IMG/VR virus record: IMGVR_UViG_3300031539_000002
Reading direction: 5' to 3' (one strand)
DNA: 64,000 nt
DNA from: a virus
The notes below the pieces were generated by a model, which was not told the origin of the DNA, searched no databases, and saw only the letters and a program-made list of their open reading frames with translations. Each line of letters begins with the position of its first letter. The stretch's first letter is position 1. Both the position numbers and the translations under genes were made by a program. Positions 22,901 through 43,065 of this stretch are shown piece after piece.

Positions 22901-25900
22901 CCTAGAGTCCCAGATGGGCGACATCGAGAACGAGATCAAAGACCTCGAGGCCAAACTTAAAGGGTTCAAGCAGTACGAAAATCTCTCAGGCGATGCCAAG
23001 AAGCAGATAGACGAGCATGTTCGGGACACCCAACGTGCCATTGGCCGCAAGAAGGATGAACTTGAGGACAAGAAGGAAGAGTTCGACGAAGCGAAGGAGA
23101 AGGTCAAAGAGCTCAGGGCTGAGCGAAAGGACCCCGGCTTCGCTCAAGCCAAGCGCAAGGAGCAGGCTCGCAAGCAGCGAGCCGAACGGGTGAGCCGTGC
23201 TGTCCTCAAGGCGCAAGGAGACATGCAGAAACTCCTCGGTAACGAGGATACCCAGATCCCAGGGGTCCTTGCCAAGCAGATTGCCAAGGCACTCAACAAC
23301 CTCGATGAGTCTGAGGTGGAGTCCTTTTCGATTGATTTTCAGGACACGCTCCAAAAGTTGATGGGGATGGACTCGAGTTCGGATGAGGCACTTGAGTTGG
23401 CGTCTCAAGCCGCCAAGTTTGGTGACCTCCATGGCCTTACTGATCCGGGGGAGTTGGCCGTGCGAATGGCTCAGCTCAGCTATGCGCAGAACGTCGTCGC
23501 CAATCCGATGAACATCGGGGGAAAGCCGGTCGGCGTCACGGAGATGGACAGTGACAAGTACGCCGAACGTGCTCGCGCATCCTACGACCAGTTTCAGAAC
23601 CTGCCGTCCTCTTTGCGTACGCAGGCTGCGAGGCAAGTGACGGAGGCGCTCGAGGGTCTGGACCCTGAGACGCACCGCTCACAGGAACTCAATGCCATTT
23701 TGACGGGCATGAACCTTGCTCAGGTGGCGGCGACGGGGGACTCCCTCCCAGGGCGCCCTCAACCGAGCAAAGGGATGGCGTCAGTCATCCAAGCGATGGC
23801 TGAAAAGGGCGATGTTGATGCCCTCTTCACTACTTCGGAGGACTACTTTGCAGAGCAAGCTCGCGGGAAGATGGAGAAGAGTCTTGATGACATGACGCCA
23901 CTTGAGGTGGCTCAGTTGGCCACACAAGGGGATTCCAATCACGGCTACGCGGGGATGGTCAAATTGATTGAGGAGGAGTCTACGCCTGATGTCATGAGAG
24001 CCATGATGAAAGACTATCTTATCCAAGACATCCTCAACGATCAGTGGGGCGACCGAGCCATCCGCGACACGATGCAGGCTGCGGGTCTTGTGGATGCTGA
24101 TGACCCCGAGGTACGCGCAGGAGTGGTGGGTGAAGCTAACGAGCGCATGAAGCCTCGGATGGAGCAGATGCTTGAGGCGCGGGAGCGTATTGCTCAAGCC
24201 GAGAAAGAAGGCAAAAAACCGGATCCCGAAGACGAGGCCATTGTTGCAGGCGTCTTGGACAAGGAAAAGGGTACCGGTCTACGTGAGAAGGCGAAGGCTG
24301 TTCTCGATACGATCAAGGACAAGTTCAAGAAGGTCGTCATCTCCCCGGCGAGCGCGGTGCTCCAGCACTTCGTCAACACGGGTGACCGAAAAGTGCTCGA
24401 GCAAGAGACGCTGCCACATCCTGATGAGAAGGCCAAAGCACCTCGTCCCAAGGAAGAGCGTGATGAGGCTCGTGGAGGCGAGAGCACGGCACCGAAGTCG
24501 AAGCGCGAGCGCATGATCGAACGTGTGCGTCTCAAGGCTGAGAGGGTCAAGCTCAAGGCACAGCGCGACAAGGTGAAGGGCGACGAGAAGGGCAAGTACG
24601 ACGAGAAGATCAAGGACCTCGATGGGAAGATCGAGGGCCTGTCGAAAGAGCCTGAGAGCGACGAGTCCGAGAGCGAGCAGCCCAAATCCCGCGAGGATTA
24701 CCGAGCGAAGTTCGATGGCTCGACGTGGGGTGACGACGACGCGGGCACCGAGTACCACGTCGGGGATCTCATCCATAAGGCTGAGTCCAAGGAGGTCGAA
24801 GAGGTTCCGATCGCGGACATCGAGGAGAGCCTCAAGAATATCTCGGCAGACGAGCCGGTGGGTTCGCCCGAGTTCAAAGAGCGAGCTGACAAGGCCGACC
24901 TCAAGTATCCCGTCGTTCTCATGCGACAGGAAGACGGCTCCCTCGAGATCGTGGATGGCTCCCATCGAGCTTGGAAGGCACGCGAGACGAAGCAGCCGTT
25001 GAAGGCTCGGATTCTGGAGCCCGCCGATCTTGAAGATCTTGAGCAGGTCTCCGACGCTGATCGTGAAAAGTGGGACGAAAACGTCGAGTCTCAGGACGAC
25101 GAGGAGCACGGCCCCGGCGACGTTTGGGAGACCGAGCAGGGCAACTGGCGCGCCAAGAACCCGGACGGCGTCCCCAAATCATTCAAGGACAAGGACAAGG
25201 CTGAGATCTACGCCAAGGGCCCAGACGAGAAGGAGTCCGAGGGGAGCGCTGAGAAGCCCAAGGGAGCGCCCGACGAGGCTGAGGGGAAAGGCCAAGCCGA
25301 GAAGGACGAAACGGCTGAGGGAGCGTCTGAGGGAGCGTCTGAGGGCGCCTCTGAGAAGCCCAAACAGCAGCGCCGGGCCGTCAAGGACGAGCACTTCGAC
25401 CGCACGCAGGATGCTGTGGACTCCGTAGGAGCACCCATCCAGGAGAGCTTTACGAAGCTGGCGGACGACCCTGCTTTCCTCAAGATGAGCCCGCAAGAGC
25501 GATACACGCGTCTCGGAGAGACGCTCAAGGAGGCCATTCCTGGTGCTCGAGCGATCCAAGTGCCTGGGGCCGGTTCTAACGCTCCCATCAGCATCACGGT
25601 GCCCGAGGAACACCGAGCTCCCGGCGTGACCTCCCGGCAGAAGATTCGCTTGCAGCCCAACAGCACGGGTGGCGAGGCGTCGGGTAAGGGCGGCCATCTG
25701 GGGCTCGGTGTGAAGGACCTGCTTGAGGCCAAGACGCCCGAGGAGATCAAGAATGCGACTGCGCGGGTCATGGGCACGATGGTGCATGAGATGACCCACA
25801 TTTACGGGCATCATGGGACCAACCCCGATGAGTTTGACGATGAGGACAAGAAGGTGCGCCACATCCGATACATCTCGGACCCGGGGGAGATGCGGGCCCA

Positions 25901-26297
25901 CGCGAAGGAATTCGCGTGGCGTTACGCTCAGGACCACCCCGATGAGGGGGAGGTCGACATCGACAAATTAGAAGAGGCTCACAAGGGAGTGGGTAAGGAT
26001 TGGAAGATCCGGCAGTACTTCCAACAGCTCGGTGACAAGGAAGTCCAAGCCAAGTACGACCCTGAGGTCCAGAAGCTCATGCAGGACACGCATGAGGAGA
26101 TGGGCGACTTGGTGCAGCACTACGTCGACGAGTACCGGAAGCGCAATGGCCAACAGCGCAAGATGGGGAGCCGCGTGGCCCAAGCGTGGCTCGAGAAGGA
26201 ACGTCCCGTTCGCATGGCGAATGACTGGTTGGCACACGTCCGTTCGTTCCATCCAGACGACCCAAAACGTCCGATTGTCGTGCTCGACGCGGCTTGA
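16920..26297 (+). CDS. Giant polyvalent protein (3125 aa): ART, second ART-like, ParB x2, Ntn-hydrolase, DUF5661-like, topoisomerase IB, GNAT, coiled coil, zincin
   Basis: LFRG/SSFT/EVEF; NPL..GYDGI..EIVVL; DGHHR and DGSHR; A-CIIA..KNRD..GVNEHG..TNHG; GTKVELEHT..AMDHLTEDPKYY; RVGN..GKSG..KDIR..GH..SQY; VPKENKGQG..WYRSMGF; HEMTH..E. Confidence 0.85.
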   Translation: MNALVARVAARHMAAQDDFSVGDEVLFGKYKNKRGKIVRLFEDERGIPSVEIEPIPKGRKQNRVIGLYKIWKGDHRKQAAYSKEFLEFVQGRRFQNPDTGNQVLFQSLEVPEQVKIYQQWGAAQNAQEEKPEGRERHEPGRLPPAWNRDSDMARKVEKLAEEYATEYEDFFDGMRQVSVEDERYRGAEFAGEAVMLREWDRHIPGYVRLPPSSTLEAMSDEDRRIALTSWDAGVKFMDEVLGDGERLSLLETMKPSGEGGSLGSPGEGWIDSTHSPGAQRLQGALRELGIETHLPSRGIEDHAKWRDEGASNDLLKSALTKAMAWQRAYFAAMGVEDVMLFRGASLGDEVARQQEPHPTDKQQKYLPQGIPVTLQSRQELSSFTMDPYVAYNFTHRNRSPGESDESYESRAGNSLRGAVAYRVPVDRIVLSPAAIPQLGPATPKIKEGYREVEFIVGGIGELEGRTLPSLDAGYGAGRYDPEKMKLATKITIEMSDEDEDAWHKSVRRENKGDRRKQAAYSKEFLDSVQGQRFRNPDTGNKVVFKSLSEAEQRKIHERWEARHRSQDASGPTVTERGRTFETGKPVAFEFLRNTEKAPKAPSDSDPYQQKIEPAGFYVTHKDTDGDPLPGYDTGTISFQNPLVLAVNTNPDGPIYDENSWKAQLERQYGKRGKALTKALQADGYDGIVTVTQVRGKPYTSEIVVLDSEKSVQKGDDRKRRAQEIAGMGYEAAAQLDNDELDSVAFGVKQGVQDLRIDQLKVKYDADLEQAEHAVSREPDRWKEHLDEPIEVRFKDGEFHIEDGHHRYVTAQRMGRDSVKVDLTIDDNPVKKIFEMAGKKMASFHREACIIAGRRFGDSLCLIKNRDRAYDAELEIVHLEKDGTEMAVILDTVTGYMEGVNEHGIAVVNTTLMVVRDEAEGKKKSPNGDKGKKPLTSKDGPKIYRALACDNIEDALESLRTDDNGIRGHTFVADGNKLFSIECSKTHPARVTELDPDRVNTRTNHGVSYPDAGYTHGEDYVSSVVRRWEAQKRLQDIKRPEAAAVALIEAIDEADSPFNPVRTTDKMRTTSQLTIDTTNPRLLLYLIPGHAKVVKRRNTLPDGRKPKIPVRVFKYRNKMEDRKKPVNKDAALIERVAARSLDKLPGGLADEKKPEDFDPEQIAKGTKVELEHTDDRAVAREVAMDHLTEDPKYYDKLETIEKHGARYKSKKKVKTKDGDEMTVYEYSDRQIADRNRGKAERIEKLRKQMKKLQTKVRKDVNSKDEKTRDLALAVGLMDETFERVGNDGSAKEGHFGVTTWRVKHMTFGKGGVTITYVGKSGVDQKKKVTNPRIVSGLKDACKDKEPNACVLSVTASEVNEYLKPLDITAKDIRGFHANQKMKEELRKVRKGKLPEDPKEKEKKLKDEFKSALEATADAVGHEASTLRSQYLVPGLEDDYMRDGTVNESHTKKGSTLHTAALDGTPTERHILAHAQLAPVLVTANRRWWIQKAPNLYRIAREDERPRPHIEGVRFPPEVFTVLWYEDDDGNRYEMPEDGPEHPEGAKYQLSQFPNYLHDSMLQLNEDGTSTEIMSGQRGFPEDLVTSMVRSGEWDVGDAIMVGGTSCERCMNVLCNRYLGPEEGYPYDSEEYWQCGTRCAMCGHVDNTNERVVRQPRYASPSYDSYVQRKRREGGPVLSRDEWEAKVMGVEDDADETPEATREDWEARRNALMEEHGLDKFHSSYRPDEKHMTIDLISVPKENKGQGSASKAMKETLAWADSNGVTVTLSPTSEFGASKKRLEKWYRSMGFVPNKGRNKDFRFTDAMLREPQAKTATKSDAENEDEAVAKMLRKEPKLKPPRYDLRDNRTLDDDDPEDDLGGGDDGDRDMSMKWNKVASRVAFRWTAIGPRVPRPERVARLFLAEAPPKDKAQPKSGPSFEEWVKNQKFKHPETSNDVGFSSLPSDEQAKIREKWKGQQQPEDESGKDKGKGDEDAKRTKEDVQVDLNNARDEMRDLESQMGDIENEIKDLEAKLKGFKQYENLSGDAKKQIDEHVRDTQRAIGRKKDELEDKKEEFDEAKEKVKELRAERKDPGFAQAKRKEQARKQRAERVSRAVLKAQGDMQKLLGNEDTQIPGVLAKQIAKALNNLDESEVESFSIDFQDTLQKLMGMDSSSDEALELASQAAKFGDLHGLTDPGELAVRMAQLSYAQNVVANPMNIGGKPVGVTEMDSDKYAERARASYDQFQNLPSSLRTQAARQVTEALEGLDPETHRSQELNAILTGMNLAQVAATGDSLPGRPQPSKGMASVIQAMAEKGDVDALFTTSEDYFAEQARGKMEKSLDDMTPLEVAQLATQGDSNHGYAGMVKLIEEESTPDVMRAMMKDYLIQDILNDQWGDRAIRDTMQAAGLVDADDPEVRAGVVGEANERMKPRMEQMLEARERIAQAEKEGKKPDPEDEAIVAGVLDKEKGTGLREKAKAVLDTIKDKFKKVVISPASAVLQHFVNTGDRKVLEQETLPHPDEKAKAPRPKEERDEARGGESTAPKSKRERMIERVRLKAERVKLKAQRDKVKGDEKGKYDEKIKDLDGKIEGLSKEPESDESESEQPKSREDYRAKFDGSTWGDDDAGTEYHVGDLIHKAESKEVEEVPIADIEESLKNISADEPVGSPEFKERADKADLKYPVVLMRQEDGSLEIVDGSHRAWKARETKQPLKARILEPADLEDLEQVSDADREKWDENVESQDDEEHGPGDVWETEQGNWRAKNPDGVPKSFKDKDKAEIYAKGPDEKESEGSAEKPKGAPDEAEGKGQAEKDETAEGASEGASEGASEKPKQQRRAVKDEHFDRTQDAVDSVGAPIQESFTKLADDPAFLKMSPQERYTRLGETLKEAIPGARAIQVPGAGSNAPISITVPEEHRAPGVTSRQKIRLQPNSTGGEASGKGGHLGLGVKDLLEAKTPEEIKNATARVMGTMVHEMTHIYGHHGTNPDEFDDEDKKVRHIRYISDPGEMRAHAKEFAWRYAQDHPDEGEVDIDKLEEAHKGVGKDWKIRQYFQQLGDKEVQAKYDPEVQKLMQDTHEEMGDLVQHYVDEYRKRNGQQRKMGSRVAQAWLEKERPVRMANDWLAHVRSFHPDDPKRPIVVLDAA

Positions 26298-27187: not shown

Positions 27188-28186
27188 ATGCCCAGTCTCT
27201 CCCTACAGCAGACCAGAACGTACATCGACAGGCTCGGTGATCTCGAAAACGAGCTCACCCGATCCTGTCGTGTCGCAGAGGTCATGTCCAAAGGCGCCGA
27301 CAAAGATCAGGCGGCCGCGGGCGGTCGTCTGAAAGACGCCTGCGACTCGGCGCGGGAGCACCTCAAGTACGTCGCGGAGGCGAAGACACGCCTGCTCGAG
27401 TTCGATGGGTTCCTGCATGCGCAAAGCCAGACCATCCGTGAGTCGCTCGATCGACCACACATGGTCTCGTTCATGAACGAGGTGGGCTCCAAACTGGGGC
27501 GCTCCATGGAAAGTCACGTCGAAGCCATCGTCAGCGGTGCCATCGACGCCCTTCGCAGAGTCGCCGGCTCCATCAAGGACATGCGCGATGCGAAGGCTGG
27601 TACCGAGGGCGACGCGTCCGCCAAGGGGAGTGCCAAAGCACTCGACAAGATCTGTGACGCTGCTGAGAAGGCCATTCGAGAAGGGGTCAAGGAGCGCAAA
27701 GCTGCTCCGGCACCTGCTCCTGAGGTCGAAGTTGAAGTCGAAGTCGAACTCGACGAGGAGACCGAAAAAATGGCAGCACATGGTTACAACCTGACAGCAG
27801 GCCTTCCTCCCGAGTTCTTGGAGAATATCCAGAAGAAAAAGGATGAAGCCAAGGGCAAGAAGGACGACGACAAAGAGGACGAGAAAGACGCGGGCAAGAA
27901 AGCCTACGTCCAAGTCCAATACCTGACGGCGGGCCTTCCTCCTGAGTTCCTGGAGAACATCCAGAAGAAAAAGGACGAAGCCAAGGGCAAGAAGGACGAC
28001 GACAAAGAGGACGAGAAAGACGCGGGCAAGAAAGCCCACGGCTACACCCTCACCGCCGACTCCTTGACCCCCGGCAATGAATCCAAAGGCCCCAAGGACG
28101 AGGGCGAAGAAGACGAGGGTTGGGTTCCGGGTCATCGCACCGATGGCAAGGACAAGAAGGCCCACGGCTACACGCTTACTGCGTAG
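27188..28186 (+). CDS. Head-associated protein with repeated KKAHGYxLTA units
   Basis: Helical N-half; near-exact duplication of LTAGLPPEFLENIQKKKDEAKGKKDDDKEDEKDAGKKA; start could be 27176. Confidence 0.7.
   Translation: MPSLSLQQTRTYIDRLGDLENELTRSCRVAEVMSKGADKDQAAAGGRLKDACDSAREHLKYVAEAKTRLLEFDGFLHAQSQTIRESLDRPHMVSFMNEVGSKLGRSMESHVEAIVSGAIDALRRVAGSIKDMRDAKAGTEGDASAKGSAKALDKICDAAEKAIREGVKERKAAPAPAPEVEVEVEVELDEETEKMAAHGYNLTAGLPPEFLENIQKKKDEAKGKKDDDKEDEKDAGKKAYVQVQYLTAGLPPEFLENIQKKKDEAKGKKDDDKEDEKDAGKKAHGYTLTADSLTPGNESKGPKDEGEEDEGWVPGHRTDGKDKKAHGYTLTA
27790..28036 (+). repeat. Intragenic tandem duplication (132-nt period)
   Basis: ~27790-27904 and ~27922-28036 encode identical peptides and differ by a few synonymous changes. 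Confidence 0.85.
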
Positions 28187-32672: not shown

Positions 32673-33548
32673 ATGACCGGTGTATCCAACGCTGTGAAGC
32701 AAAAACTCATCTCCGAGTACATCAAGACCCCCGCGGGTCGTGCCAAGCTCGCTGCCTCTCTGACGCAGCCGCTCCGTACTCGGCGAGACTACACCTCGGT
32801 AGGCCGCAAGACCTTTTTGGTCGAGCAGCTCCCCGATGGTGCCCTGCCCATCTACGACAAAGACCCGGACGTGACAGCGTACGTGGTCGGCGAGGAAGGC
32901 GAGAACATCATCGCCGTCACCAAGCCACGTCGTGTGATTTTTCCGTTGTTCGAGATCGCCTCGAACCCGGAGATTCCACTCACCCAAATCAAGGAGCGTC
33001 GTTTCGATCTGATCGAGCGTGCTCAGGATCTTGCGCGTGCGCAGATCCAGGCTGCCGAAGACGAGCGCGTCTTCGCTGTCCTTGATGCCATCGCCACCAA
33101 CGGGTTCGACTCGATCCCCGGTGGTACCAACCCCGACATTCCAGTGGTCGCTCCGATCTCTGGTGCGGTGCTGGCCGACGCCTTCGCTCTCATCGAGCGC
33201 CACGACCTCCGGGTCGCGCGCGTGTACATGAACGCGCGGGACTACGCCGACATCAGGAAGTTTGGCCGCGATATTCTCGACATCGAGAGTCAGGCCACGC
33301 TGCTCAAGACCGGCCTCCAGGCTACCCTTTGGGGTGCCCAGGTCATCACGAGTCGCATCGTTCCTGCTGGCACCGTCTATGTATGTTGCGAACCTGAAAT
33401 GTTCGGTAGGATTCCGGTCCGCACCGAGCTGACCGTCCTCTCTGCGGACGATCCCAAGGCTCGGACCATTGGCTTCAGTGTGTTCGAAAACTTGGGTATT
33501 GGTGCGTATAACCCGCGTGGGTTGACTCGCCTCACCGTGACCCGCTAG
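32673..33548 (+). CDS. Major capsid protein (HK97 fold)
   Basis: Strong AAGGAG RBS; E-loop-like VVGEEG, QAAEDERVF spine helix, YMNARDYADI, LWGAQVITSRIVPAG; followed by a terminator. Confidence 0.85.
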   Translation: MTGVSNAVKQKLISEYIKTPAGRAKLAASLTQPLRTRRDYTSVGRKTFLVEQLPDGALPIYDKDPDVTAYVVGEEGENIIAVTKPRRVIFPLFEIASNPEIPLTQIKERRFDLIERAQDLARAQIQAAEDERVFAVLDAIATNGFDSIPGGTNPDIPVVAPISGAVLADAFALIERHDLRVARVYMNARDYADIRKFGRDILDIESQATLLKTGLQATLWGAQVITSRIVPAGTVYVCCEPEMFGRIPVRTELTVLSADDPKARTIGFSVFENLGIGAYNPRGLTRLTVTR

Positions 33549-33651: not shown

Positions 33652-34626
33652 ATGCGTGCCATCCCGTGTCCCATCACCAAAGCCGAACTCGAGCAGCTCT
33701 ATCTCGGCGAGAAACTCACCGACGACGAGGTCGCAGTCCGTATCGGCAAGGAGGCGACAGCCAAGCGTGTGCGCTCATGGAGGAAGCGTCTGGGCATTCG
33801 CACGCTCCAGCGGTGGGAACGGTACGACGTGCCTCCGATCGAGGGGCGTCTCAAGTCGCTGCTCGTGGGATCGATGCTCGGTGACGGGAGGCTCGTCCAC
33901 AGGACGCACGCGACCCACTACACGGAGAACCACGAGGACGACCAGAAACCCTATCTTGAGTGGAAAATGGCTCAGTGGGGCTCCTGGGTCCGCGTGGAGC
34001 CCAAGCACGTAGACAAGACGAAGGACGGCAAGACATACCGGTCTTGGCGGTTCCACACGGTCGCCCATGAGGCCCTGAACGACTGGCAAGCGTTGTTCTA
34101 CGAGAACCGTGATCGAGGGTGGAAGATCCTTGTGCCCGAACTCGTGGATCACGTCGATGAATTCGCGCTCGCCATCTGGTACCTCGATGACGGCTACGCG
34201 GGGTGGTGGCCCGAGTACCTTTTCGGTTCGACAGCCGAGAGCCGCAAAGTGGCATGGGCGATCTTTGAGAAGTTCGGGCTCAAACCTCGGTGGCAATTCG
34301 TCAAAGAGATGGAGGGACGTGAAACTGGCAAGTTCCACATGGAGCGCGAGGACACAGCCGAGCGTTTTCTTGAGATCGTGCGCCCGCACGTCCCGGCCTG
34401 CATGGCCTACAAGGTCAAGAGCTTCGGTTACAACAGCGGGCGCAACAACATCATCAAGGGCAAGCTCGACCCCGAGGTCTTGCGCGAGCTGGCGGCCGAG
34501 GGGATTCCGATCCGACGCATGGCCAAGTTGTTCGGGGTCGGGGGCGCGACCATCGACCGACATCTCAAGAAGCATGGCATCGAGCACGCGAGAACCAAAG
34601 GGAACCCGCGCCACAGGACCCCATGA
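33652..34626 (+). CDS. Free-standing LAGLIDADG homing endonuclease with N- and C-terminal HTH
   Basis: LVGSMLGDGRL and LAIWYLDDG motifs; C-terminal IRRMAKLFGVGGATIDRHL. Confidence 0.85.
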   Translation: MRAIPCPITKAELEQLYLGEKLTDDEVAVRIGKEATAKRVRSWRKRLGIRTLQRWERYDVPPIEGRLKSLLVGSMLGDGRLVHRTHATHYTENHEDDQKPYLEWKMAQWGSWVRVEPKHVDKTKDGKTYRSWRFHTVAHEALNDWQALFYENRDRGWKILVPELVDHVDEFALAIWYLDDGYAGWWPEYLFGSTAESRKVAWAIFEKFGLKPRWQFVKEMEGRETGKFHMEREDTAERFLEIVRPHVPACMAYKVKSFGYNSGRNNIIKGKLDPEVLRELAAEGIPIRRMAKLFGVGGATIDRHLKKHGIEHARTKGNPRHRTP

Positions 34627-35114
34627 GCAACAAAGACTTCCCACTGTTTCCGGTCCCGGATGAGGGGCTGCCTTTGTTCGACGGGGTTGAGTACCGGCTG
34701 GATGGTCTGGAGCGGGAAGTTCGTGAAATTCTGTGGTCTCTTGCGGACCGTCTTGGTGAGTTGAAAGAGTGGGCCTGGCTGGTGGGCGGCACGCTGGAGA
34801 AGGGAGGTCTGCGAACGATTGTGCGGATGGCCGCTGTGGAGCTGAACCGTTGTGGGGTCCTTGCGGATGGGGTGTCCCCTGTAGACCTTCAAGAGGACAT
34901 GGTGACGTGTTTCGTGCCGGAGGACTGCGCAGGGTTGTGGCGTAAGACGGTGGTGTGGCATGCCGTGGTGGTGGCGGTCACGACGTTGTCGGAGAAGGGG
35001 TCGAATCCAGTTTCCGATCGTCTTTGGTCACAGATTCGGCCTCGGCTGTTTGAAGCCTGGACCGAGCTTGCCGACAAGTTAGGCGTTGATGCGCCGGTTC
35101 TGGATGTGTGGTGA
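34623..35114 (+). CDS. Hypothetical protein
   Basis: ATGA overlap with the endonuclease gene; no motif recognised. Confidence 0.55.
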   Translation: MSNKDFPLFPVPDEGLPLFDGVEYRLDGLEREVREILWSLADRLGELKEWAWLVGGTLEKGGLRTIVRMAAVELNRCGVLADGVSPVDLQEDMVTCFVPEDCAGLWRKTVVWHAVVVAVTTLSEKGSNPVSDRLWSQIRPRLFEAWTELADKLGVDAPVLDVW

Positions 35115-35256: not shown

Positions 35257-35865
35257 ATGCCACAGCATTCTCTAAAAGAGATTCAACGCAGCATCCGGGA
35301 GTTCTACAAGGAGCATGGAAAACGCCCGACGAGTCGGAGCTCCGGGGAGGGCCTGAACTGGAATGGGGTGGATCAGTGGCTCCGCAAAAACGACTACGGG
35401 TCTGTTGCTCAGGTCTCTCAGGATCTGGGGATCTCAGGGCCCCATGCCGATCATGGCCTTGCAAAGATCAAGAAGGGCATTCGGAAGTTCAAGGCGGAGC
35501 ACGGGAAAATCCCTAGTGTTTTGACGGGAGACGCCACGGAGGACGTGGGGTACAGGACGAGCTGGGTGAACGTGAACAACTGGCTCCGTACACACGGGCA
35601 CGGCTCTCTCGCTCAGCTATGTCAGAGGATGGGGGTTGCGTCTTCGGTGAGCCATTCGCTGGAGGCTATCCGTGTTGGCGTCGCACTTTTTGAGAAGGAG
35701 CACGGGCGCCCTCCTCGTCAACGTGACGGGGACGCGACCTCTTATGTGACCTACAGGACTACGTGGCGAGCGGTGGATGCGTGGTTGCGCCGGAACGGAA
35801 CTTCTCTTGGGGCATCGAGCACCGACAGGAAAAAGCACACGACTGACAAGGACAAAAAATCATGA
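35257..35865 (+). CDS. Helical repeat protein (3 repeats)
   Basis: 3 x FxxEHGxxP...WxxVxxWLR..GS. Confidence 0.75.
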   Translation: MPQHSLKEIQRSIREFYKEHGKRPTSRSSGEGLNWNGVDQWLRKNDYGSVAQVSQDLGISGPHADHGLAKIKKGIRKFKAEHGKIPSVLTGDATEDVGYRTSWVNVNNWLRTHGHGSLAQLCQRMGVASSVSHSLEAIRVGVALFEKEHGRPPRQRDGDATSYVTYRTTWRAVDAWLRRNGTSLGASSTDRKKHTTDKDKKS

Positions 35866-37886
35866 AATTCCGCAAGCTCCGCAAGTACCAAGCCAAGCAC
35901 AAGCGCGCGATCCTCCAGGCCCTCCACGAGGACCGGGATGTGCTCTACAACGCCCCGACAGGTGCGGGGAAGGGCACGGTGGGAACCTCGGTCATCGACG
36001 ATCTCAGCCGGGGGGACTGGAACGGTGTCGTGGTGGTCGTTCCGATGCACACCATCCGGGACAGTTTCATGTACAACGGCGCGGGTTCGCCTGACTTGTT
36101 CGATCTCGAGATCTACAACGGCGAACCGAGCACGAAACGGAGGTTCGCGAAGTGGATGCGCAAGCACTGGCAGGACCGGTCGTTCGCCTCGGTGATCTGC
36201 CGGCAGTCCTTCGTGCACGTTTCGTTGCCTCAAGATCTCACCGGTTGGACCCTCGTCATTGACGAGGCCCACGGCAGCACGATCGAGACGGGAGATGATG
36301 CGCCGCTCATGGGGATGAAGCGCAAAGAGTGGACCGATCGAGGGGGGCGCCTCGTCGTGATCTCGGCGACGCCCTACCGCGGCGACGGTCTCCAAGTCTA
36401 CGACGACACCTTTGTCCAAGTGCGTCGCTCCATCGCGGAGCATTCGCTGCCTGACGAGGACGGCAAGCGGTACGCGCCGAAACATTTCGAGATTCGCGCG
36501 GTGGGTCTCACGGGCTACCAGGTCCGAACGAAGGACGAGCTCTACGGGGAAAAGGCGCCGCGCCACATCACCCCCACTGCCATCAGAAAGATGGTCCGGG
36601 AGTGGAAGGGTGCGGGGTGTCCCAAGACCGTTATCATCGTCCCGGCCGGGGAGTCTGGCTCGTGGAGTTATCAAGTAGTCGAGGCGTTCGAGCGTGAGAA
36701 GGTTCCGTACCGAGGCGGTACCGCGGCGCAGGTCCACAACGCAGTCGGTACTGGTAAGGAGTGCCAAGACAAGCTCCTGGCACTCCTCGCCCGTGAGCGC
36801 GAAGTGACGCACATCGACCAGTCCCAGGCGGATGTGATCGTCGCCTGCGCGCGTTTCGATGAAGGGACCGACTGGCCCTTGTGCAGTCACATCTACCACG
36901 TCGGGTTTCCGAAGACGATCCGGCGCACCAATCAGCGGTGGGGTCGTTCTTTCCGTAGCAAGGCCGGGATCAAGGGACATCCGCACCCGGATGTGGCGCA
37001 GATCTGTTTCTTCGTGCCGGAGTTGACGAAGGAGATGCGCGACCAGATGGCGGTGCCCGCGTTTGAGCGGCTCCACCTTCGTATGGCGCTTCTGATGGCC
37101 GGCCACCTCGAGGACCACGAGGCTGGCCAGATGCTCGTGTCTGTGATCCGGGACGTGGTCAAGATGAACACGCCCTCGGTCCCAGTCAACGTGGACCTCG
37201 ACGAGATCGAGGCGCGGCTGCAGCCCACGGATGAGGAGATGCAGGCCGTCTCTGTCGCGTTCAAGTATCTGCGACCCGCCGAGAAGGGGCTCAGCCTTGC
37301 GGAAGTGGACCGTGTCGCCGAGCGCCATGGGTTCGACGACCGGTGCAAGATGCTGCTGCGGCTCCGGGTAGCTGCGGCGGTCAAGGACCCGAAGACGCGC
37401 GCGGCGATGTTCGAGGCGCTTCACCATGCGTGCCGCAAGATGTTCAAGAAAGCCAAGAGTACGAAGGGTGACAAACGCAAGTCCTCGGTGTCGAGCCCCA
37501 TCGATCTGTTGCCGGGAGTTTTCAATGAGCTGTTCGACGAGTACGTCGTGCGAGAGCACAGGGGACTCATCAAATTCGACCCGCCGATGACGAAGAAGAA
37601 CTGGCGGATGCTTTCGCGCCTGACTGGTCGGGACCCCAAGGAGATCGATCAGAGCATGCGGAAGGTCATCGGCATCTTGCACCGCACCGACGACATCATG
37701 GCCGGCACCGTGAAGTACATCGAGGAGCATAGTAAGCCCCCCACGGACTCATCGGGGGATGCCACGCCCTACGTTGGGTACGAAGCGACTTGGAAGTCCG
37801 TCAACGCTTACCTCCGGGGTCACCCGCTATCCAAGGGCGCCGTCGAGGCGTGGCGCCAGAGGAACATGGAGGCGCCGGGGCGGTGA
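35862..37886 (+). CDS. SF2 (DEAH, ResIII-like) helicase with one C-terminal repeat unit
   Basis: APTGAGKG, VVVVP, IDEAH, SATP, FDEGTDWP, QRWGRSFR; C-terminal YIEEHSKPP..GDAT..WKSVNAYLR. Confidence 0.88.
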   Translation: MKFRKLRKYQAKHKRAILQALHEDRDVLYNAPTGAGKGTVGTSVIDDLSRGDWNGVVVVVPMHTIRDSFMYNGAGSPDLFDLEIYNGEPSTKRRFAKWMRKHWQDRSFASVICRQSFVHVSLPQDLTGWTLVIDEAHGSTIETGDDAPLMGMKRKEWTDRGGRLVVISATPYRGDGLQVYDDTFVQVRRSIAEHSLPDEDGKRYAPKHFEIRAVGLTGYQVRTKDELYGEKAPRHITPTAIRKMVREWKGAGCPKTVIIVPAGESGSWSYQVVEAFEREKVPYRGGTAAQVHNAVGTGKECQDKLLALLAREREVTHIDQSQADVIVACARFDEGTDWPLCSHIYHVGFPKTIRRTNQRWGRSFRSKAGIKGHPHPDVAQICFFVPELTKEMRDQMAVPAFERLHLRMALLMAGHLEDHEAGQMLVSVIRDVVKMNTPSVPVNVDLDEIEARLQPTDEEMQAVSVAFKYLRPAEKGLSLAEVDRVAERHGFDDRCKMLLRLRVAAAVKDPKTRAAMFEALHHACRKMFKKAKSTKGDKRKSSVSSPIDLLPGVFNELFDEYVVREHRGLIKFDPPMTKKNWRMLSRLTGRDPKEIDQSMRKVIGILHRTDDIMAGTVKYIEEHSKPPTDSSGDATPYVGYEATWKSVNAYLRGHPLSKGAVEAWRQRNMEAPGR

Positions 37887-39511
37887 GGCAAGAGGCTCAC
37901 AACTGCTACCAGCTTGCTTGTCTCATCGGGGTCGTGGAGCCTCGTACATCTCGCAAAAAGAGCGTGAACAGAACGATGAAGGGGGTGGAGGGCGAGATCC
38001 TCGCTTTCTTCAAGAAGCACGGGCGACGCCCAAGAGACAAAGATGGGTTCCGCAACGTGGACGCGTGGTTGATGCGGCGTGGGAGTTCGATCCACAAGAT
38101 CTGCGAGAAGCTGGGTCTTCCTGGTGGCCGGGATTTTGGGCGCACGAAGGGAAGCATCGAACGAAAAATCAGGAAGTTCTACGACCGGGAGGGTAGGCGG
38201 CCCAAGAACAGGGAGATGGTGGACGAAAGCCGGTGGCTTGCCTACCACCACAAGATGTCTCTCCATGATCTATGTGACGAAATGGGGCTTCCCACAGAGA
38301 AGGTCCTTCGCACGATTACACGAGTCCGCAAAGAGATCCGGGAGTTCTATGCCCGTGAAGGGCGTCGTCCGACCAATAAGGAGCTGCTTGGGTGGCTCAA
38401 TTTCTTGAGAAGAAAAAACACGACTCTATCCAAACTCTGCGACAAGATGGGGCTTCCCGAAGGCCACAGAAAGCGTCGTTCAATGGCACGGCTCCGCGAG
38501 GTGCTTCAAGCATTTTTCGACGAGCACGGACGGCGCCCCACTACTGAAGAGATGGGGGCTTGGTGCGGTTGGCTTCGAGCACACCACAAAGGCAATACGC
38601 TCTACGGCGTCTGCAATGAGATGGGACTGCCTTCTCGGAGCGGGCAATCCGGGAAAGCCAGTGTGAGGTACTCCAAGAAGGAGGTGCTCCAAGAGGTCCA
38701 AAAGTTTTACGACCGTGAGAAACGGCGCCCGATGAGCAAGGAGGTACGGAAATGTGCTGGCTGGCTCAAGCGACGTGGCAGCAGTCTTCGAGAGCTGTGC
38801 GATGAGATGGGACTCCCCGCAGACGGGTACACCATGGAGATTGCTCGACAGGAACTCGGGAAATTTAACGAGACCCACGGGCATCGGCCGAGACACCAGG
38901 ATCTCCCCAAACTCGCGCGGTGGCTGCGGTCGCAGGGCATTTCGTTGCCTCGGCTCGGTGAAAAAATGGGGCTCCCTGCGAAACGCCAAGAGGTCTCTGG
39001 CAGGACGATGAACTCCGTCCGGGCCGAGATCCGTAAATTCGTCAAGGCACATGGCCGTCGACCGGGCGTCCATGACATGCAGAAGATCGACAGTTGGCTG
39101 CGGGTCCGGGGTACGGGGCTGCCTGCGGTGTGCGACGAGATGGGGTACGCACCGCTCATGCGAAGGGATCGCACTGAGGAAGAAGCACGGCAGGTGGTGC
39201 TCCGTTTCTACAAGGAGAACGGAAACCGCCCGCGCAAGGTTGACCTGCCGGTGTGGCAGGGATGGTTTGAGCATCGAGGATCTTCATTGCGCAAGTTTTG
39301 TGATGCACTTGGTCTGCCGAAGGAGTGTGAGTACGACAGGACCCTCAAGAAGGCACGCATCGCGATGAAGGCATTTTTCAAGGAGCACGGGCACCGTCCC
39401 GTACAGTCGGACCTTTGGGCTTGGGACGGTTGGCTACGGAACAACCACGGTCTGTCCGTCTCGAAACTCTGCGACGAACTTGGGTTTCCCAAGAAGGGAC
39501 GCCGGCCATGA
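37883..39511 (+). CDS. Tandem helical repeat protein (9 repeats)
   Basis: GTGA overlap with the helicase stop; 9 x FxxxxGRRP...W L...LCDEMGLP. Confidence 0.8.
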   Translation: MRQEAHNCYQLACLIGVVEPRTSRKKSVNRTMKGVEGEILAFFKKHGRRPRDKDGFRNVDAWLMRRGSSIHKICEKLGLPGGRDFGRTKGSIERKIRKFYDREGRRPKNREMVDESRWLAYHHKMSLHDLCDEMGLPTEKVLRTITRVRKEIREFYAREGRRPTNKELLGWLNFLRRKNTTLSKLCDKMGLPEGHRKRRSMARLREVLQAFFDEHGRRPTTEEMGAWCGWLRAHHKGNTLYGVCNEMGLPSRSGQSGKASVRYSKKEVLQEVQKFYDREKRRPMSKEVRKCAGWLKRRGSSLRELCDEMGLPADGYTMEIARQELGKFNETHGHRPRHQDLPKLARWLRSQGISLPRLGEKMGLPAKRQEVSGRTMNSVRAEIRKFVKAHGRRPGVHDMQKIDSWLRVRGTGLPAVCDEMGYAPLMRRDRTEEEARQVVLRFYKENGNRPRKVDLPVWQGWFEHRGSSLRKFCDALGLPKECEYDRTLKKARIAMKAFFKEHGHRPVQSDLWAWDGWLRNNHGLSVSKLCDELGFPKKGRRP

Positions 39512-40395
39512 GCACCCAAGAACTCCGCGCTCGAAGTTGCATTGAGGTTGCGGCACTCCTCGGGCTCCACGAGCGACCGATACGCTCGAGGACGCTGGAG
39601 AGCGCGCGTGCGGAGGTTTTAGCCTCTTATGAGAAGCACGGGAGACGCCCTTCGGAGCAGCGTTTGAGTGCCACGGGTCAGTGGCTTCGGTATCGCGGAT
39701 CATCTCTCCGGCGTGTCTGCGACGAGCTGGGCTTGCCTGGTGGGACCAACCTAGGCCGAACGAAGGAGGGAGCGAAAACGGTAACTCAAGGTTTTTTTGA
39801 CAAGCATGGACGCCGCCCTGTGGCACAAGATCTTCGTGCGTGGGATTCGTGGCTGCGCGGGCGGGGGTCTTCGCTTGTCGTCCTCTGTGACGAGATGGGG
39901 CTTCCTGAGCGCACCAGAATCATCCGAAGGAAAAGCAGCGCAACAAGGATGATCCGAGCTTTCTACCAGGAACAGGGCCGGTGCCCCGAGCCAGGAGAGA
40001 TTCCTGTGCTGGATCGTTGGCTACATAAGCACGCGTTGGTGTTGTCTCTTCTTTGCGACGAGTTAAGCCTCCCCTCTGATTGGGGCGACGCGAAAAAAAC
40101 CATTCAAGAGTTCTTCAACAAGCACGGGAGACGCCCGAAGTCCACGGAGCTACCGCAGTGGGCCCGCTGGCTGCGTGCGCAGGGGTCTTCCCTCTCCCGC
40201 CTCTGTGACGAGCTGGAATTTCCCGGTCCCGGGGTGCCCAGAACCAAGCAAATGGCGCAGCATGTAATTCGAGCTTTCGTTCAGAAAAACGGGCACCGAC
40301 CGTCCGAAGCGAGCCTTCCTGATTGGTACGAATGGTTGCGGCATGTGCCTGGGGTTTCGCTTCAGCAACTCTGCAATGAGATGGGGGTGCCTTGA
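39508..40395 (+). CDS. Tandem helical repeat protein (5 repeats)
   Basis: ATGA overlap; same repeat unit. Confidence 0.8.
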   Translation: MSTQELRARSCIEVAALLGLHERPIRSRTLESARAEVLASYEKHGRRPSEQRLSATGQWLRYRGSSLRRVCDELGLPGGTNLGRTKEGAKTVTQGFFDKHGRRPVAQDLRAWDSWLRGRGSSLVVLCDEMGLPERTRIIRRKSSATRMIRAFYQEQGRCPEPGEIPVLDRWLHKHALVLSLLCDELSLPSDWGDAKKTIQEFFNKHGRRPKSTELPQWARWLRAQGSSLSRLCDELEFPGPGVPRTKQMAQHVIRAFVQKNGHRPSEASLPDWYEWLRHVPGVSLQQLCNEMGVP

Positions 40396-42158
40396 GCTCT
40401 TTGGATGGACACGCGAGTAACTGCACTGAGATCGCGGCCATCCTCGGCCTCCACGAGCTTCCGAAGCGCAGGACGATGGAGGGGGCGCGGGTGGAGGTCC
40501 GGGAGTTCTACGAGAAGCATGGTCGTCGTCCTTGGTGCACAGACCTCATGAATTTGGACGCGTGGCTGCGCAAGAAAAGGACGAATTTGCCTGACCTGTG
40601 CGATGAGCTGGGACTCCCTGGGGGGAAGAACCTGCGTCGCACGATGGAAGAGGTCCGCCAAGAGGTCCAAGCGTTTTTCGATGAACACGGTCGTCGCCCG
40701 AGTTGTCACGAAATGGCTTCTACCGACCGCTGGCTCCGAGTGCAGGGCACCGCTCTTCGCAAGTTATGCGACGAGATGGGGCTCCCCGGCGGTGCGGTGT
40801 TCGGTCGCACGATGGAAGGGGCCCGCCAAGAGATTCAGGCGTTCTTCGAGGAGCATGGCCGCCGCCCCTACGAGGCTGATTTGAATGGCGCCAGTCTTTG
40901 GCTGCGGAAGGAAGGAACAAGTTTACAAAAACTGTGCGACGAGATGGGCCTCCCGAAGCATCGGGACAGTTGGTCAGCAGAAAGAGCACGCCAAGAAGTC
41001 CAGGCTTTTTTTGACGAGCACGGTCGGCGCCCTTTGGTAAAAGAGAACACAGCACTGGGGCACTGGCTGACCAGACGTGGCACGAGCTTGTCCAAGTTGT
41101 GCGACGAGATGGGGTTGCCTTGGCCTTCCCGCTCCAAGTACACGAGGGAGAAGATACGCCCGAAAATCCAAGCATTTTTCGATGAGCACGGACGCCGCCC
41201 GATAGATAAGGAGGTGAATGGCATCAGCCTCTGGTTGCGGAGGGTCGGGGCGACCCTTCGAGATGTCTGCAATGAGATGGAACTCCCCGGAGGTCTGGTG
41301 CTCGATCGGACGATGGAAGGGGCCCGCCAAGAGATTCAGGCGTTCTTCGAGGAGCATGGCACACGTCCTAGAGTGGTTGACAAGAAGGCGCTGGCATCTT
41401 GGTTACGGGGACAAGGAACAAATTTACGAAAACTGTGCGACGAGATGGGCCTCCCGAAGATCATTCGGGCTCGGAACGCGTCCACGGAAGAAGTAGTCAA
41501 CGAAGCGACCAAAGAGATCCAAGCGTTTTTTGATGAGCATGGCCGCCGCCCTTCGGTGAGAGAGAGAGCGGCACTCGCCGCGACTCTTCGATCGCGTGCT
41601 TCCTCCATCCCCCAAATTTGCGAAGCGATGGGGCTTCCAAAACGATCGCGCTCAAAACGTACGCTGGAAGGGGCCCGCCAAGAGATTCAGGCGTTCTTCG
41701 AGGAGCATGGCCGCCGCCCTGCCTGCGCCGAGATGGGTGGCCTGTCGAACTGGTCGGCTACGCAGGGCACGACTTTGCGCAAGCTGTGCGATGAGTTGGA
41801 ACTCCCTGGCAATCGCCGTTATGACCGGACGATAGAGGGTGTTCGACGAGAGATTCAGGCGTTCTTCGAGGAGCATGGCCGCCGCCCAAAGCAGAAAGAG
41901 GGCCATTTCAACACCCTCGATCAGTGGCTTTTTCGTCACGGAAGTTCTATCCCCAAACTCTGCAATGAGATGGGGCTCCCCGGAGGTCTGGTGCTCGATC
42001 GGACGATGGAGGGGGCGCGCCAAGAGATTCAAGCATTTTTCGACGAGCACGGCCGGCGCCCCATGGCGAAGGAGCTGCGGCCACTCAATAAGTGGCTCTT
42101 GGTCCAGACCCCGCGCTCGACCGTGGCGAAACTGTGCCATGAGATGGGACTGCCTTGA
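40392..42158 (+). CDS. Tandem helical repeat protein (10 repeats)
   Basis: TTGA overlap; TMEGARQEIQAFFEEHGRRP...LCDEMGLP x10. Confidence 0.8.
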   Translation: MSSLDGHASNCTEIAAILGLHELPKRRTMEGARVEVREFYEKHGRRPWCTDLMNLDAWLRKKRTNLPDLCDELGLPGGKNLRRTMEEVRQEVQAFFDEHGRRPSCHEMASTDRWLRVQGTALRKLCDEMGLPGGAVFGRTMEGARQEIQAFFEEHGRRPYEADLNGASLWLRKEGTSLQKLCDEMGLPKHRDSWSAERARQEVQAFFDEHGRRPLVKENTALGHWLTRRGTSLSKLCDEMGLPWPSRSKYTREKIRPKIQAFFDEHGRRPIDKEVNGISLWLRRVGATLRDVCNEMELPGGLVLDRTMEGARQEIQAFFEEHGTRPRVVDKKALASWLRGQGTNLRKLCDEMGLPKIIRARNASTEEVVNEATKEIQAFFDEHGRRPSVRERAALAATLRSRASSIPQICEAMGLPKRSRSKRTLEGARQEIQAFFEEHGRRPACAEMGGLSNWSATQGTTLRKLCDELELPGNRRYDRTIEGVRREIQAFFEEHGRRPKQKEGHFNTLDQWLFRHGSSIPKLCNEMGLPGGLVLDRTMEGARQEIQAFFDEHGRRPMAKELRPLNKWLLVQTPRSTVAKLCHEMGLP

Positions 42159-42519: not shown

Positions 42520-43065
42520 TCAGGCGTCAGCTTGAGGCTCTTGTTGTTCGTCGCCGGTGAGGATAGCTAGAGTTCGCGCCACGTCCTCTGGTTGGATGCC
42601 TCGAGCCCAGCTCGTGCGCACGAGATAGGGCGCCATGTGGGCGAAAGCACCGTCTCCCATGTCATCGAGGATGACGAAGTTCTCGACGTTGAGGTGCTTG
42701 TTCTTTACGAGCCAGACTTCGATTTCGAGTCCACGGAGCCCACGGTTCGCCAGGCCTGGCGGCATCTCATTGGAGAGTGGTGTGCGTCCGATGACTTCGC
42801 CGGTGAAGCCTCGGGAACTGAGGTAGCGCTGCATGTCTTCGGGAGTGCAGTGGTAGCGCCACGAGGATGAGATGACGACCTTCGCGTCACCGAGGGCCAC
42901 GATGGCGTTGAGGCGCTCCACGGAGGTGGGGTTGATCATGCGGGTCCACCAGTAGTCGTCTTTGGGGTCCGGTGCTGTGGACGTGTCCGCGTCCAGGTCT
43001 GGATTGGACCCGAAGTACTCGGCGCTGTTGAGCACCCCGTCCATGTCTAGGAACACGACGCGCAT
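42520..43065 (-). CDS. HAD-family phosphatase (Swiss-Army-knife RNA-repair-type HAD)
   Basis: FLDMDGVLN, VVISSSWR, RGLEI, FVILDD. Confidence 0.85.
   Translation of the reverse strand: MRVVFLDMDGVLNSAEYFGSNPDLDADTSTAPDPKDDYWWTRMINPTSVERLNAIVALGDAKVVISSSWRYHCTPEDMQRYLSSRGFTGEVIGRTPLSNEMPPGLANRGLRGLEIEVWLVKNKHLNVENFVILDDMGDGAFAHMAPYLVRTSWARGIQPEDVARTLAILTGDEQQEPQADA

What the first reader, a model, noticed from the sequence alone, without database searches (positions are those of the whole stretch)
35257..42158. SF2 helicase coupled to four arrays of a ~56-aa repeat with a hypervariable helix: candidate modular nucleic-acid-reading system
Seen: five genes are chained by 4-nt stop/start overlaps (ATGA, GTGA, ATGA, TTGA). 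They carry 3+1+9+5+10 = 28 copies of one unit, RTxxxxRxEIxxFFxEHGRRP-[variable ~12 aa]-WLxxxG-SLxxLCDEMGLP. The scaffold is conserved, while the residues between RRP and W differ in essentially every copy (WCTDLMNLDA, SCHEMASTDR, YEADLNGASL, LVKENTALGH and so on). The helicase has intact motifs I-VI, no visible nuclease domain, and one repeat unit of its own. Knowledge: the unit loosely resembles helicase-associated (HA) small helical domains. Inference: this is an array of HTH-like readers whose variable helix sets specificity (zinc-finger/TALE logic), serving a shared motor. Plausible roles are targeting rival phages or elements, or host takeover.
Basis: partly seen in the sequence, partly recalled or inferred. 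Interest (0 to 1): 0.9.

Follow-up and report, generated by a model that had tools for sequence, protein, structure and literature searches.

The report
Phage helicase plus HA-repeat array genes
An uncultured large phage carries a DNA-motor (SF2 helicase) gene chained to four genes made of 27 copies of a small three-helix "helicase-associated" module, probably detachable DNA-binding tails for the motor; the module family is known but uncharacterised, and the split, fast-changing multi-gene layout has not been described.

Summary
Five + strand genes (35257-42158) are joined by ATGA/GTGA/ATGA/TTGA overlaps and hold 3+1+9+5+10 = 28 copies of a ~56-aa unit.

The unit belongs to a known family. It passes Pfam HNH_repeat (PF18780) and is a profile-level relative of the helicase-associated HA domain (PF03457). 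AlphaFold2 models it as a confident three-helix bundle.

The link to the helicase is strong. Eight other uncultured-phage contigs keep helicase-then-arrays synteny, and 17 of 158 array-bearing proteins are direct helicase-array fusions. The same repeat is also fused to the Tn7 target selector TniQ.

The variable patch is real. It comprises three residues after RRP and the exposed face of helix 2. It is conserved between g3 orthologues (omega 0.22). In g5 it stays at random-level nucleotide identity between scaffold blocks that are 90-95% identical. Array content turns over between phages whose helicases are 88% identical.

My reading is that these are trans-acting, probably DNA-binding tails of a conserved motor. 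DNA binding, sequence specificity and any TALE or zinc-finger-like code remain untested; I give a code about 7%. This scan has noted HA-repeat arrays before in other genomes.

Verdict: a new variant of a known kind, of moderate interest.

The parts
35257..35865 (+). g1: 202-aa basic protein (pI 10.0) made of three long-loop, HA-like units with a conserved GDAT..Y.GY insert. The last unit lacks helix 3.
35862..37886 (+). g2: 674-aa SF2 (ResIII/DEAD-type) helicase or translocase with intact motifs I, II and VI. It has a helical region at aa ~400-600 and one C-terminal HA-like unit.
37659..37883 (+). The helicase's own C-terminal repeat unit (aa ~600-674), of the g1 type. It is conserved in all close helicase homologues.
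37883..39511 (+). g3: 542-aa array with an N-terminal leader and 9 units (pI 10.3, net charge +54). Unit-by-unit orthologues exist in two related phages.
39508..40395 (+). g4: 295-aa array with a leader and 5 units. No unit-level orthologue was found in the relatives examined.
40392..42158 (+). g5: 588-aa array (TTG start) with a leader and 10 units of period 168 nt. Its DNA is a mosaic of near-identical scaffold blocks around unrelated variable segments.
40392..40463 (+). Conserved N-terminal leader of the array proteins (consensus RAR.C.EVA.LLG). It is also present at 37883-37945 (g3) and 39508-39579 (g4).
40807..40867 (+). One copy of the helix-1 coding block that is nearly nucleotide-identical in g5 units 3, 6 and 8 (also at 41308-41368 and 41659-41719), while the codons after RRP are unrelated.

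Best explanation
The module is the split form of a known architecture: an SF2 helicase with a C-terminal tail of helicase-associated (HA / HNH_repeat superfamily) three-helix domains. In this phage lineage the conserved motor (g2) keeps a single unit. The rest of the tail has become separate genes (g1, g3, g4, g5), whose 4-nt start/stop overlaps suggest translational coupling.

Each ~56-aa unit is an independent three-helix bundle joined to the next by a 6-8-residue linker. A constant scaffold, including conserved basic residues (RT, GRRP, WLR), frames a unit-specific surface patch. That patch comprises the three residues after RRP and the exposed face of helix 2.

I infer that the arrays bind nucleic acid, most likely double-stranded DNA. 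I infer that they act with the helicase as exchangeable anchoring or targeting subunits, in the way a Type I restriction motor works from a separate specificity subunit. The unit-specific patches would tune what the whole array prefers, and the shared N-terminal leader may be the docking element.

- Shown: the repeat family, the fold class, the linkage to the helicase, selection on the patch, and turnover of the arrays.
- Inferred: DNA binding, physical docking, and the biological role.
For: Family: Pfam HNH_repeat scores 81.1 bits for g5 and 55.7 bits for g3 against a cut-off of 26. hhalign of the unit profile against eight HA units of P0051 (Pfam HA 128.5 bits) gives 96.5% probability, E 9e-10.

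Fold: AlphaFold2 on a 89-row three-unit alignment gives pLDDT 91.4, with three helices per unit.

Linkage to the helicase:
- Helicase followed by arrays, mostly with 4-nt overlaps, is found in L005, L006, L012, L017, L016, L015, L011, the P0003 contig and a 399-kb contig.
- 17 of 158 array-bearing cluster representatives carry this helicase core fused N-terminally to 3-7 units.
- The 1093-aa homologue P0012 has at least 6 units in its tail.

Partners elsewhere act on DNA:
- The repeat is fused to TniQ inside a TnsA/B-TniB-TniQ Tn7-like element. A preprint figures TniQ-HA fusions (10.1101/2025.07.27.667033).
- Atlas leads point to LAGLIDADG and EcoEI-R fusions.
- The title of the HA NMR paper says the structure 'indicates domain binding to DNA' (Mills 2013, cited in PMC12191111).

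Charge: the array proteins have pI 9.25-10.3, and g3 has net charge +54.

Selection on the patch:
- g3 against its L005 orthologue gives omega 0.22 at variable columns and 0.12 at scaffold columns.
- g3 units are colinear with the L005 and P0042 orthologues.
- g5 units 3 and 6 are 90% (helix 1) and 95% (helix 3) identical in nucleotides but 37% identical in the variable segment.

Exchangeability: the L016 helicase is 88% identical to g2, yet its downstream array is only 43% identical to any array here.

Docking (weak):
- Complex prediction of g2 with the first 133 residues of g4 (leader plus two units) scored a median 0.44, with best control 0.00.
- The tool's verdict was 'weak support'. The mark was reached by 58 of 80 solved complexes and 2 of 110 mismatched pairs. 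At 0.60 or under it was reached by only 7 of those 80 and by both mismatches that passed.
- The runs agree in at least 78% of contacts and the partner pLDDT is at least 74. My own alignments were used, so these counts hold only roughly.
Against: - No experiment or DNA co-fold bears on binding, and no model coordinates were available to map the patch.
- Structural matches to HTH domains are weak (Z no higher than 4.5), and Foldseek found nothing at E <= 0.001.
- In those superpositions the helix at the canonical recognition position is conserved and acidic (CDEMG). g5 units carry little net charge (-2 to +4).
- The helicase core does not resolve to a DNA-specific family. RadD, FANCM, Mfd, INO80, RIG-I, NS3 and DEAD-box proteins all score Z 19-21.
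- Arrays also occur without any adjacent helicase, for example L014 next to ArdA.
- The docking prediction is weak by the tool's own calibration.
Confidence: 0.55

Rival explanations
1. Programmable reader: each unit reads a fixed, short stretch of bases through its variable patch, so the order of units spells a long DNA target (TALE, zinc-finger or PUF logic), and the helicase is delivered there.
For: - The variable residues fall at the same few exposed positions across 335 units.
- The patch is conserved between orthologous units but differs between paralogous units.
- Scaffold homogenisation stops at the patch.
- TniQ fusions imply site selection.
Against: - There are 7-9 variable positions per unit rather than 1-3, with no recurring residue 'alphabet'.
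- The units are not predicted to pack into a regular solenoid (pTM 0.56).
- The patch is not on the canonical recognition helix.
- As established knowledge, very few repeat families read nucleic acid by a code. Earlier notes of this scan report that later checks gave the same bold reading low odds for similar HA arrays (unchecked by me).
Confidence: 0.07
2. Protein-recognition arrays: the variable patches bind host or rival-phage proteins (takeover, anti-defence or decoy), and the helicase is only a co-expressed neighbour or is itself the regulated target.
For: - Array content turns over quickly between close phages, and g4/g5 lack unit-level orthologues, as expected in an arms race.
- g5 units are nearly neutral in charge.
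- The variable patches include hydrophobic residues (W, C, Y, L, V).
Against: - Covalent fusion to helicases, TniQ and nucleases across the family points to a nucleic-acid role.
- g3 is strongly basic and conserved.
- Identical g3 and g5 sequences occur on six contigs, with no microdiversity.
Confidence: 0.15
3. RNA-directed module: the arrays bind RNA and the SF2 enzyme is an RNA helicase or remodeller. This would fit the RNA-repair-like genes nearby.
For: - The neighbours include a 2H-phosphoesterase plus PolyA_pol-head protein (14800-16923) and HAD_SAK_2 (42520-43065, minus strand).
- The helicase core scores as well against RIG-I, NS3 and DEAD-box proteins as against DNA translocases.
- The best, non-significant Foldseek rows for the array are designer PPR proteins (E 0.13).
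Against: - Family-wide partners (TniQ, homing endonucleases, Type I R subunits) act on DNA.
- The PPR rows are not significant.
- The RNA-repair genes are not conserved next to the module in the relatives.
Confidence: 0.1

Closest known systems
SF2 helicases with C-terminal helicase-associated (HA, Pfam PF03457) domain repeats; structural prototype BVU_0683(627-691) of Bacteroides vulgatus (Mills et al. 2013, J Struct Funct Genomics 14:19; seen only as a citation in PMC12191111)
   Same: - A ResIII/DEAD-type motor followed by tandem ~55-70-aa three-helix units with the F..EHG..P ... W ... G-hydrophobic signature.
- The unit profile aligns to true HA units at 96.5% probability.
- Fused helicase-array relatives exist.
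   Different: - The Pfam HA profile itself does not reach threshold on any protein here (21.6 bits against 28.4; no six-frame hit).
- The units are shorter, with a short helix 2-3 connection.
- Most units are on four separate, overlapping genes that share an N-terminal leader, in a phage.
Pfam HNH_repeat (PF18780), 'homing endonuclease associated repeat'
   Same: g5 and g3 score above the gathering cut-off. The unit length and three-helix layout match. In 2021 the family was listed among repeat families without a known structure (PMC8078820).
   Different: None of the five proteins has an endonuclease domain. The nearby LAGLIDADG gene (33652-34626) is a separate gene and is not conserved with the module.
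TniQ/TnsD-type target selectors of Tn7-like transposons carrying HA/HNH_repeat arrays (P0116 in L010; TniQ-HA fusions figured in bioRxiv 10.1101/2025.07.27.667033)
   Same: The same repeat family, at 9 or more units, is attached to a protein whose job is choosing a DNA site.
   Different: The partner there is a transposition protein, not a helicase, and the array is fused rather than encoded separately.
Type I / Type ISP restriction enzymes (SF2 motor plus exchangeable specificity module)
   Same: This is a working analogy only. A conserved SF2 motor goes with a rapidly exchanged, modular part that may choose the target. LlaBIII and EcoR124I HsdR are among the Foldseek hits of the motor.
   Different: No nuclease, methyltransferase or HsdS-like TRD is present. 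PADLOC hits are marginal. It is not a member of these systems.
TALE, PUF and PPR code-type repeat arrays
   Same: Tandem helical units with a constant scaffold and position-restricted variability.
   Different: The fold is different. There is no evidence of a packed solenoid, there are many variable positions per unit, and no code is known.

Membership tests
Pfam HNH_repeat (PF18780) | Profile score above the gathering cut-off (26 bits) | tested here: met
   g5 scores 81.1 bits and g3 55.7 bits. g4 (16.2) and g1 (18.7) fall below on their own, but my unit HMM ties them to g5 at E 1e-12 to 1e-23 (g4) and 1e-6 to 4e-10 (g1).
Pfam HNH_repeat (PF18780) | Association with a homing endonuclease domain in the same protein | tested here: not met
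   No HNH, LAGLIDADG or GIY-YIG domain is found in g1-g5. LAGLIDADG_2 lies in a separate upstream gene.
HA, helicase-associated domain (PF03457) | Profile score above the gathering cut-off (28.4 bits) | tested here: not met
   The best score is 21.6 bits, on g3. There is no six-frame hit at E <= 0.1 in the whole record.
HA, helicase-associated domain (PF03457) | Homology to bona fide HA units at profile level | tested here: met
   hhalign of A1 against A5 (units of P0051, Pfam HA 128.5 bits) gives 96.5% probability, E 9e-10, over 28 columns.
HA, helicase-associated domain (PF03457) | Tandem three-helix units C-terminal to an SF2 helicase | tested here: met
   g2 carries one tail unit. There are 17 fused relatives with 3-7 units. 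AlphaFold2 gives three helices per unit.
SF2 helicase/translocase | Walker A, DExH and motif VI arginines, with two RecA-like lobes | tested here: met
   Pfam ResIII, DEAD and Helicase_C match. K37, D134/E135 and Q358/G361/R362/R365 are invariant or nearly so. The best structural match is RadD at Z 21.3 (rmsd 4.5, 325 aligned), with many SF2 families within 2 Z units.
Helix-turn-helix DNA-binding domains | Clear structural match to a solved HTH domain, with the recognition helix exposed | tested here: inconclusive
   The best matches have Z 4.5 or lower (SauUSI 617-668, FapR, TetR family, AraC, Myb, DsrC), with 46-55 residues aligned at rmsd 2.1-3.8.
Code-type repeat readers (TALE, PUF, PPR) | A regular packed solenoid, with one or two specificity residues per unit and a known target | tested here: inconclusive
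   pTM is 0.56 for three units despite pLDDT 91. There are 7-9 variable columns per unit. The target cannot be tested with these tools.
Restriction-modification (Type I/ISP/III) or other PADLOC defence systems | Nuclease and/or methyltransferase partner, or a defence-family profile hit | tested here: not met
   Only marginal PADLOC hits to helicase cores were found (PbeA 4e-7, DpdF about 1e-2). No nuclease or methyltransferase domain is present in g1-g5.
Diversity-generating retroelement target | Reverse transcriptase and template repeat, with adenine-specific variation | tested here: not met
   There is no RVT_1 hit in the 102.7-kb record, although the record is an incomplete fragment. The variable segments differ at all bases, at random-level identity. 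Sequences are identical across six contigs.

The most novel reading that the evidence does not exclude
The arrays are a natural, modular DNA-address system. Each three-helix unit reads a short stretch of bases through its unit-specific patch. The arrays dock through their shared leader onto one conserved translocase. Phages re-program the motor's genomic address by swapping whole arrays and by patch-sparing gene conversion.
Probability: 0.07. Interest if true: 0.9.

Novelty: new variant of a known kind. Interest (0 to 1): 0.5.

Why it matters
HA and HNH_repeat domains are widespread. The unit profile matches 784 clusters, at 50% identity, among 1.84 billion proteins. They sit on helicases, homing endonucleases and transposon target selectors, yet their function is essentially unstudied.

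This phage lineage offers a clean natural experiment, with four features:
- a conserved motor;
- detachable arrays with a common leader;
- one array (g3) whose unit-specific residues are conserved over deep divergence;
- other arrays (g4, g5) that are replaced between near-identical phages and kept diverse at one surface patch.

If the arrays prove to be DNA binders with tunable preference, this would explain what HA repeats do on many enzymes. It could also provide a new small modular DNA-binding scaffold.

If they bind DNA only promiscuously, the finding is an unusual gene arrangement of a known accessory domain.

Tried and rejected
- Sequence search of the PDB found nothing significant, with g2, g5 or the unit profile.
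- Foldseek of the three-unit model against the PDB gave no hit at E <= 0.001. The VIA-align searches gave only Z 4.5 or lower, and the solved HA structure was not among the rows. This says nothing either way.
- The helicase fold searches (PDB and BFVD) returned generic SF2 families and no specific functional family.
- Neither the region (blastn) nor g2 or g5 (tblastn) matched any of 50,697 GenBank phage records.
- Pairwise dN/dS between paralogous units is uninformative, because synonymous sites are saturated (pS about 0.7).
- The search for population microdiversity failed. The 90%-cluster members of g3 and g5 are the same sequence with different called starts.
- The DGR idea was rejected.
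- The run of ~58-aa ORFs in L006 was tested as possible single-unit genes. They are not repeat units.
- No sigma-70-type promoter was found and no convincing terminator bounds the module.
- LAGLIDADG as part of the module was rejected, because it is not conserved beside it.
- The HA NMR paper could not be read.

Full report
WHAT IS THERE

The window is part of a 102.7-kb IMG/VR virus record, which CheckV estimates at 22% complete. Nearly all of its genes lie on the + strand. They include a capsid-family gene and many ORFs without any family match.

Five genes run between 35257 and 42158, head to tail, with the junctions ATGA, GTGA, ATGA and TTGA.

- An HMM built from the ten g5 units recovers 10, 9, 5 and 3 units in g5, g3, g4 and g1.
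- The last ~70 residues of the helicase g2 are a unit of the g1 type.
- No other copy exists in the record.

WHAT THE UNIT IS

Pfam places g5 (81 bits) and g3 (56 bits) in HNH_repeat (PF18780, 'homing endonuclease associated repeat'). The helicase-associated HA domain (PF03457) appears only below its threshold.

The HA link is nevertheless real. P0051 is a ResIII/Helicase_C protein found with g5 as the query. It carries HA units at 128 bits that also score on HNH_repeat. A profile of the 28 units aligns to those HA units with 96.5% probability, E 9e-10.

AlphaFold2, run on a 89-row alignment of three-unit windows, gives pLDDT 91.4.

- Each unit has three helices of 15, 9 and 7 residues.
- pTM is only 0.56, so the units look like separately folded beads on short linkers.

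Fold searches give only weak matches, at Z 4.5 or lower. Almost all are small tri-helical HTH-like domains: TetR, FapR, AraC, Myb, homeodomain and DsrC, and a segment of the helicase-coupled nuclease SauUSI. The unit profile matches 784 clusters among 1.84 billion representatives, with 3-14 units per protein.

THE VARIABLE PATCH

High-entropy columns are the inter-unit linker, the three residues after RRP, four positions of helix 2 that alternate with conserved hydrophobic positions, and one position after WLR. The same pattern holds in 335 non-redundant units from 89 proteins. By helical periodicity these are exposed positions; this is read from the sequence, because no coordinates were available.

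Between paralogous units, synonymous sites are saturated, so dN/dS there is uninformative. Three other tests are informative.

1. g3 has an orthologue in a phage whose helicase is 74% identical. At variable columns omega is 0.22 (68% amino-acid identity). At scaffold columns it is 0.12 (84% identity).
2. g3 units are colinear, patch by patch, with that orthologue and with a more distant one (helicase 64% identical). g4 and g5 units have no patch-level counterparts in related arrays.
3. Inside g5 the scaffold blocks are locally almost nucleotide-identical. A ~46-nt block is shared by units 3, 6 and 8. Units 3 and 6 are 90% and 95% identical in the helix-1 and helix-3 blocks. The variable segment between those blocks sits at random-level identity, 37%.

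The third test confirms a lead from an earlier first-reader note on this genome. Scaffold homogenisation that spares the patch, together with purifying selection on the patch in orthologues, shows that the diversity is maintained by selection.

LINK TO THE HELICASE

The close helicase homologues (52-88% identity) all keep one tail unit. Where flanks are available, they are followed by array genes.

| Contig | Units in the array genes after the helicase |
|---|---|
| L005 | 9 + 2 |
| L006 | 2 + 6 |
| L012 | 9 + 11 + 4 |
| L017 | 4 + 9 + 6 |
| L016 | 4 or more, cut by the contig end |
| P0003 contig | an HNH_repeat protein downstream |
| 399-kb contig | four overlapping genes of 390, 268, 382 and 229 aa |

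Two more distant contigs pair a profile-detectable member of the helicase clade with arrays that carry a different N-terminal domain (L011 and L015).

Seventeen of 158 array-bearing representatives are direct fusions of this helicase core to 3-7 units. The 1093-aa homologue P0012 has at least 6 units.

The arrays are also plastic. The L016 helicase is 88% identical to g2, but its downstream array is only 43% identical to anything here.

Array proteins of this clade share a nearly invariant N-terminal leader, RAR.C.EVA.LLG, that is not part of a unit. A complex prediction of g2 with the first 133 residues of g4 (leader plus two units) gave only weak support. The median score was 0.44 and the best control 0.00, a range in which the tool's calibration says passes are more often wrong than right unless the guess was already likely.

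WHAT IT PROBABLY DOES

Elsewhere the same repeat sits on proteins that select or act on DNA.

- It is fused to TniQ inside a TnsA/B-TniB-TniQ element of an archaeal contig. A preprint figures TniQ-HA fusions.
- By Atlas leads it also occurs on LAGLIDADG endonucleases and Type I R subunits.
- The only structural paper on HA is known to me just from its title, which says the structure 'indicates domain binding to DNA'.

The array proteins are basic, with pI 9.25-10.3 and a net charge of +54 for g3. The motor has intact catalytic motifs. It has a generic SF2 fold whose best matches include the dsDNA translocases RadD, FANCM, Mfd, INO80 and Snf2-type enzymes. RNA helicases score almost as well.

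I therefore read the locus as a split helicase-HA system. Trans-acting, probably DNA-binding arrays anchor or direct a conserved motor. g3 is a conserved core array, and g4 and g5 are exchangeable ones.

I commit to this at about 55%. My odds for the rivals are:

- a strict per-unit code, about 7%;
- protein recognition, about 15%;
- an RNA-directed role, about 10%.

Points against a canonical HTH reader are these. The helix in the recognition position is the most conserved part of the unit and is acidic. The variable patch lies on the preceding loop and the start of helix 2.

NOVELTY

The domain superfamily and the helicase-HA architecture are known, so this is not a new kind of system. Three things appear undescribed in the literature I could search:

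- the phage-borne, multi-gene split arrangement with a shared leader;
- the contrast between a conserved array and exchangeable arrays;
- the patch-sparing mosaic at the DNA level.

Cultured phages lack the module. Earlier notes of this scan describe HA-repeat arrays in other genomes, including a nine-gene array, a Type ISP fusion and a giant-virus helicase. They report that later checks priced the code reading low. I did not test those notes, but they tempered my odds.

Noticed in passing
window 33652-34626 (+): A free-standing LAGLIDADG_2 homing endonuclease gene (E 1e-21) lies directly after the capsid-family gene (32673-33548). It overlaps the next ORF (34623-35114) by 4 nt. The same capsid-then-LAGLIDADG order occurs on the P0003 contig.
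   Followed up: partly
window 16920-26297 (+): A giant 3125-aa ORF carries a eukaryotic-type topoisomerase IB core (aa 1232-1424), DUF5661 and an AAT-like region. The relative's version also carries NUDIX.
   Followed up: no
window 14800-16923 (+) and 42520-43065 (-): RNA-repair-like genes: a 2H phosphoesterase plus PolyA_pol head (nucleotidyltransferase) fusion, and a HAD_SAK_2 'Swiss Army Knife RNA repair' HAD domain just downstream of g5 on the opposite strand.
   Followed up: no
window 27789-28040: A 132-nt tandem duplication (1.9 copies, 94% match) lies inside a coding region that encodes a K/D/E-rich segment.
   Followed up: no
L006 7166-13313: In a related 246-kb contig, about 25 tandem paralogous ORFs of ~58 aa (W/R/V/Q-rich, ending E-E-I-N-Q/R), many with 4-nt overlaps, follow the helicase-array module. 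The family is absent from this window's record.
   Followed up: partly
P0054, P0058, P0070, P0073 and others; L011, L015: A second clade of array proteins replaces the RAR.C.EVA.LLG leader with a ~55-70-aa N-terminal domain that begins W-P-x-x-W-D-x-x-E-G-W-P. It also lies downstream of a divergent helicase of the same clade.
   Followed up: partly
window 40392-40550: Public gene calls start g5 33 or 52 codons downstream (555- and 536-aa products), cutting into the first unit. The conserved leader supports the TTG start at 40392.
   Followed up: yes
L014 8001-14354: Two very large array proteins (1303 and 785 aa, HNH_repeat) sit beside ArdA and DUF3849 genes, which suggests a conjugative element. 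No helicase is adjacent.
   Followed up: no
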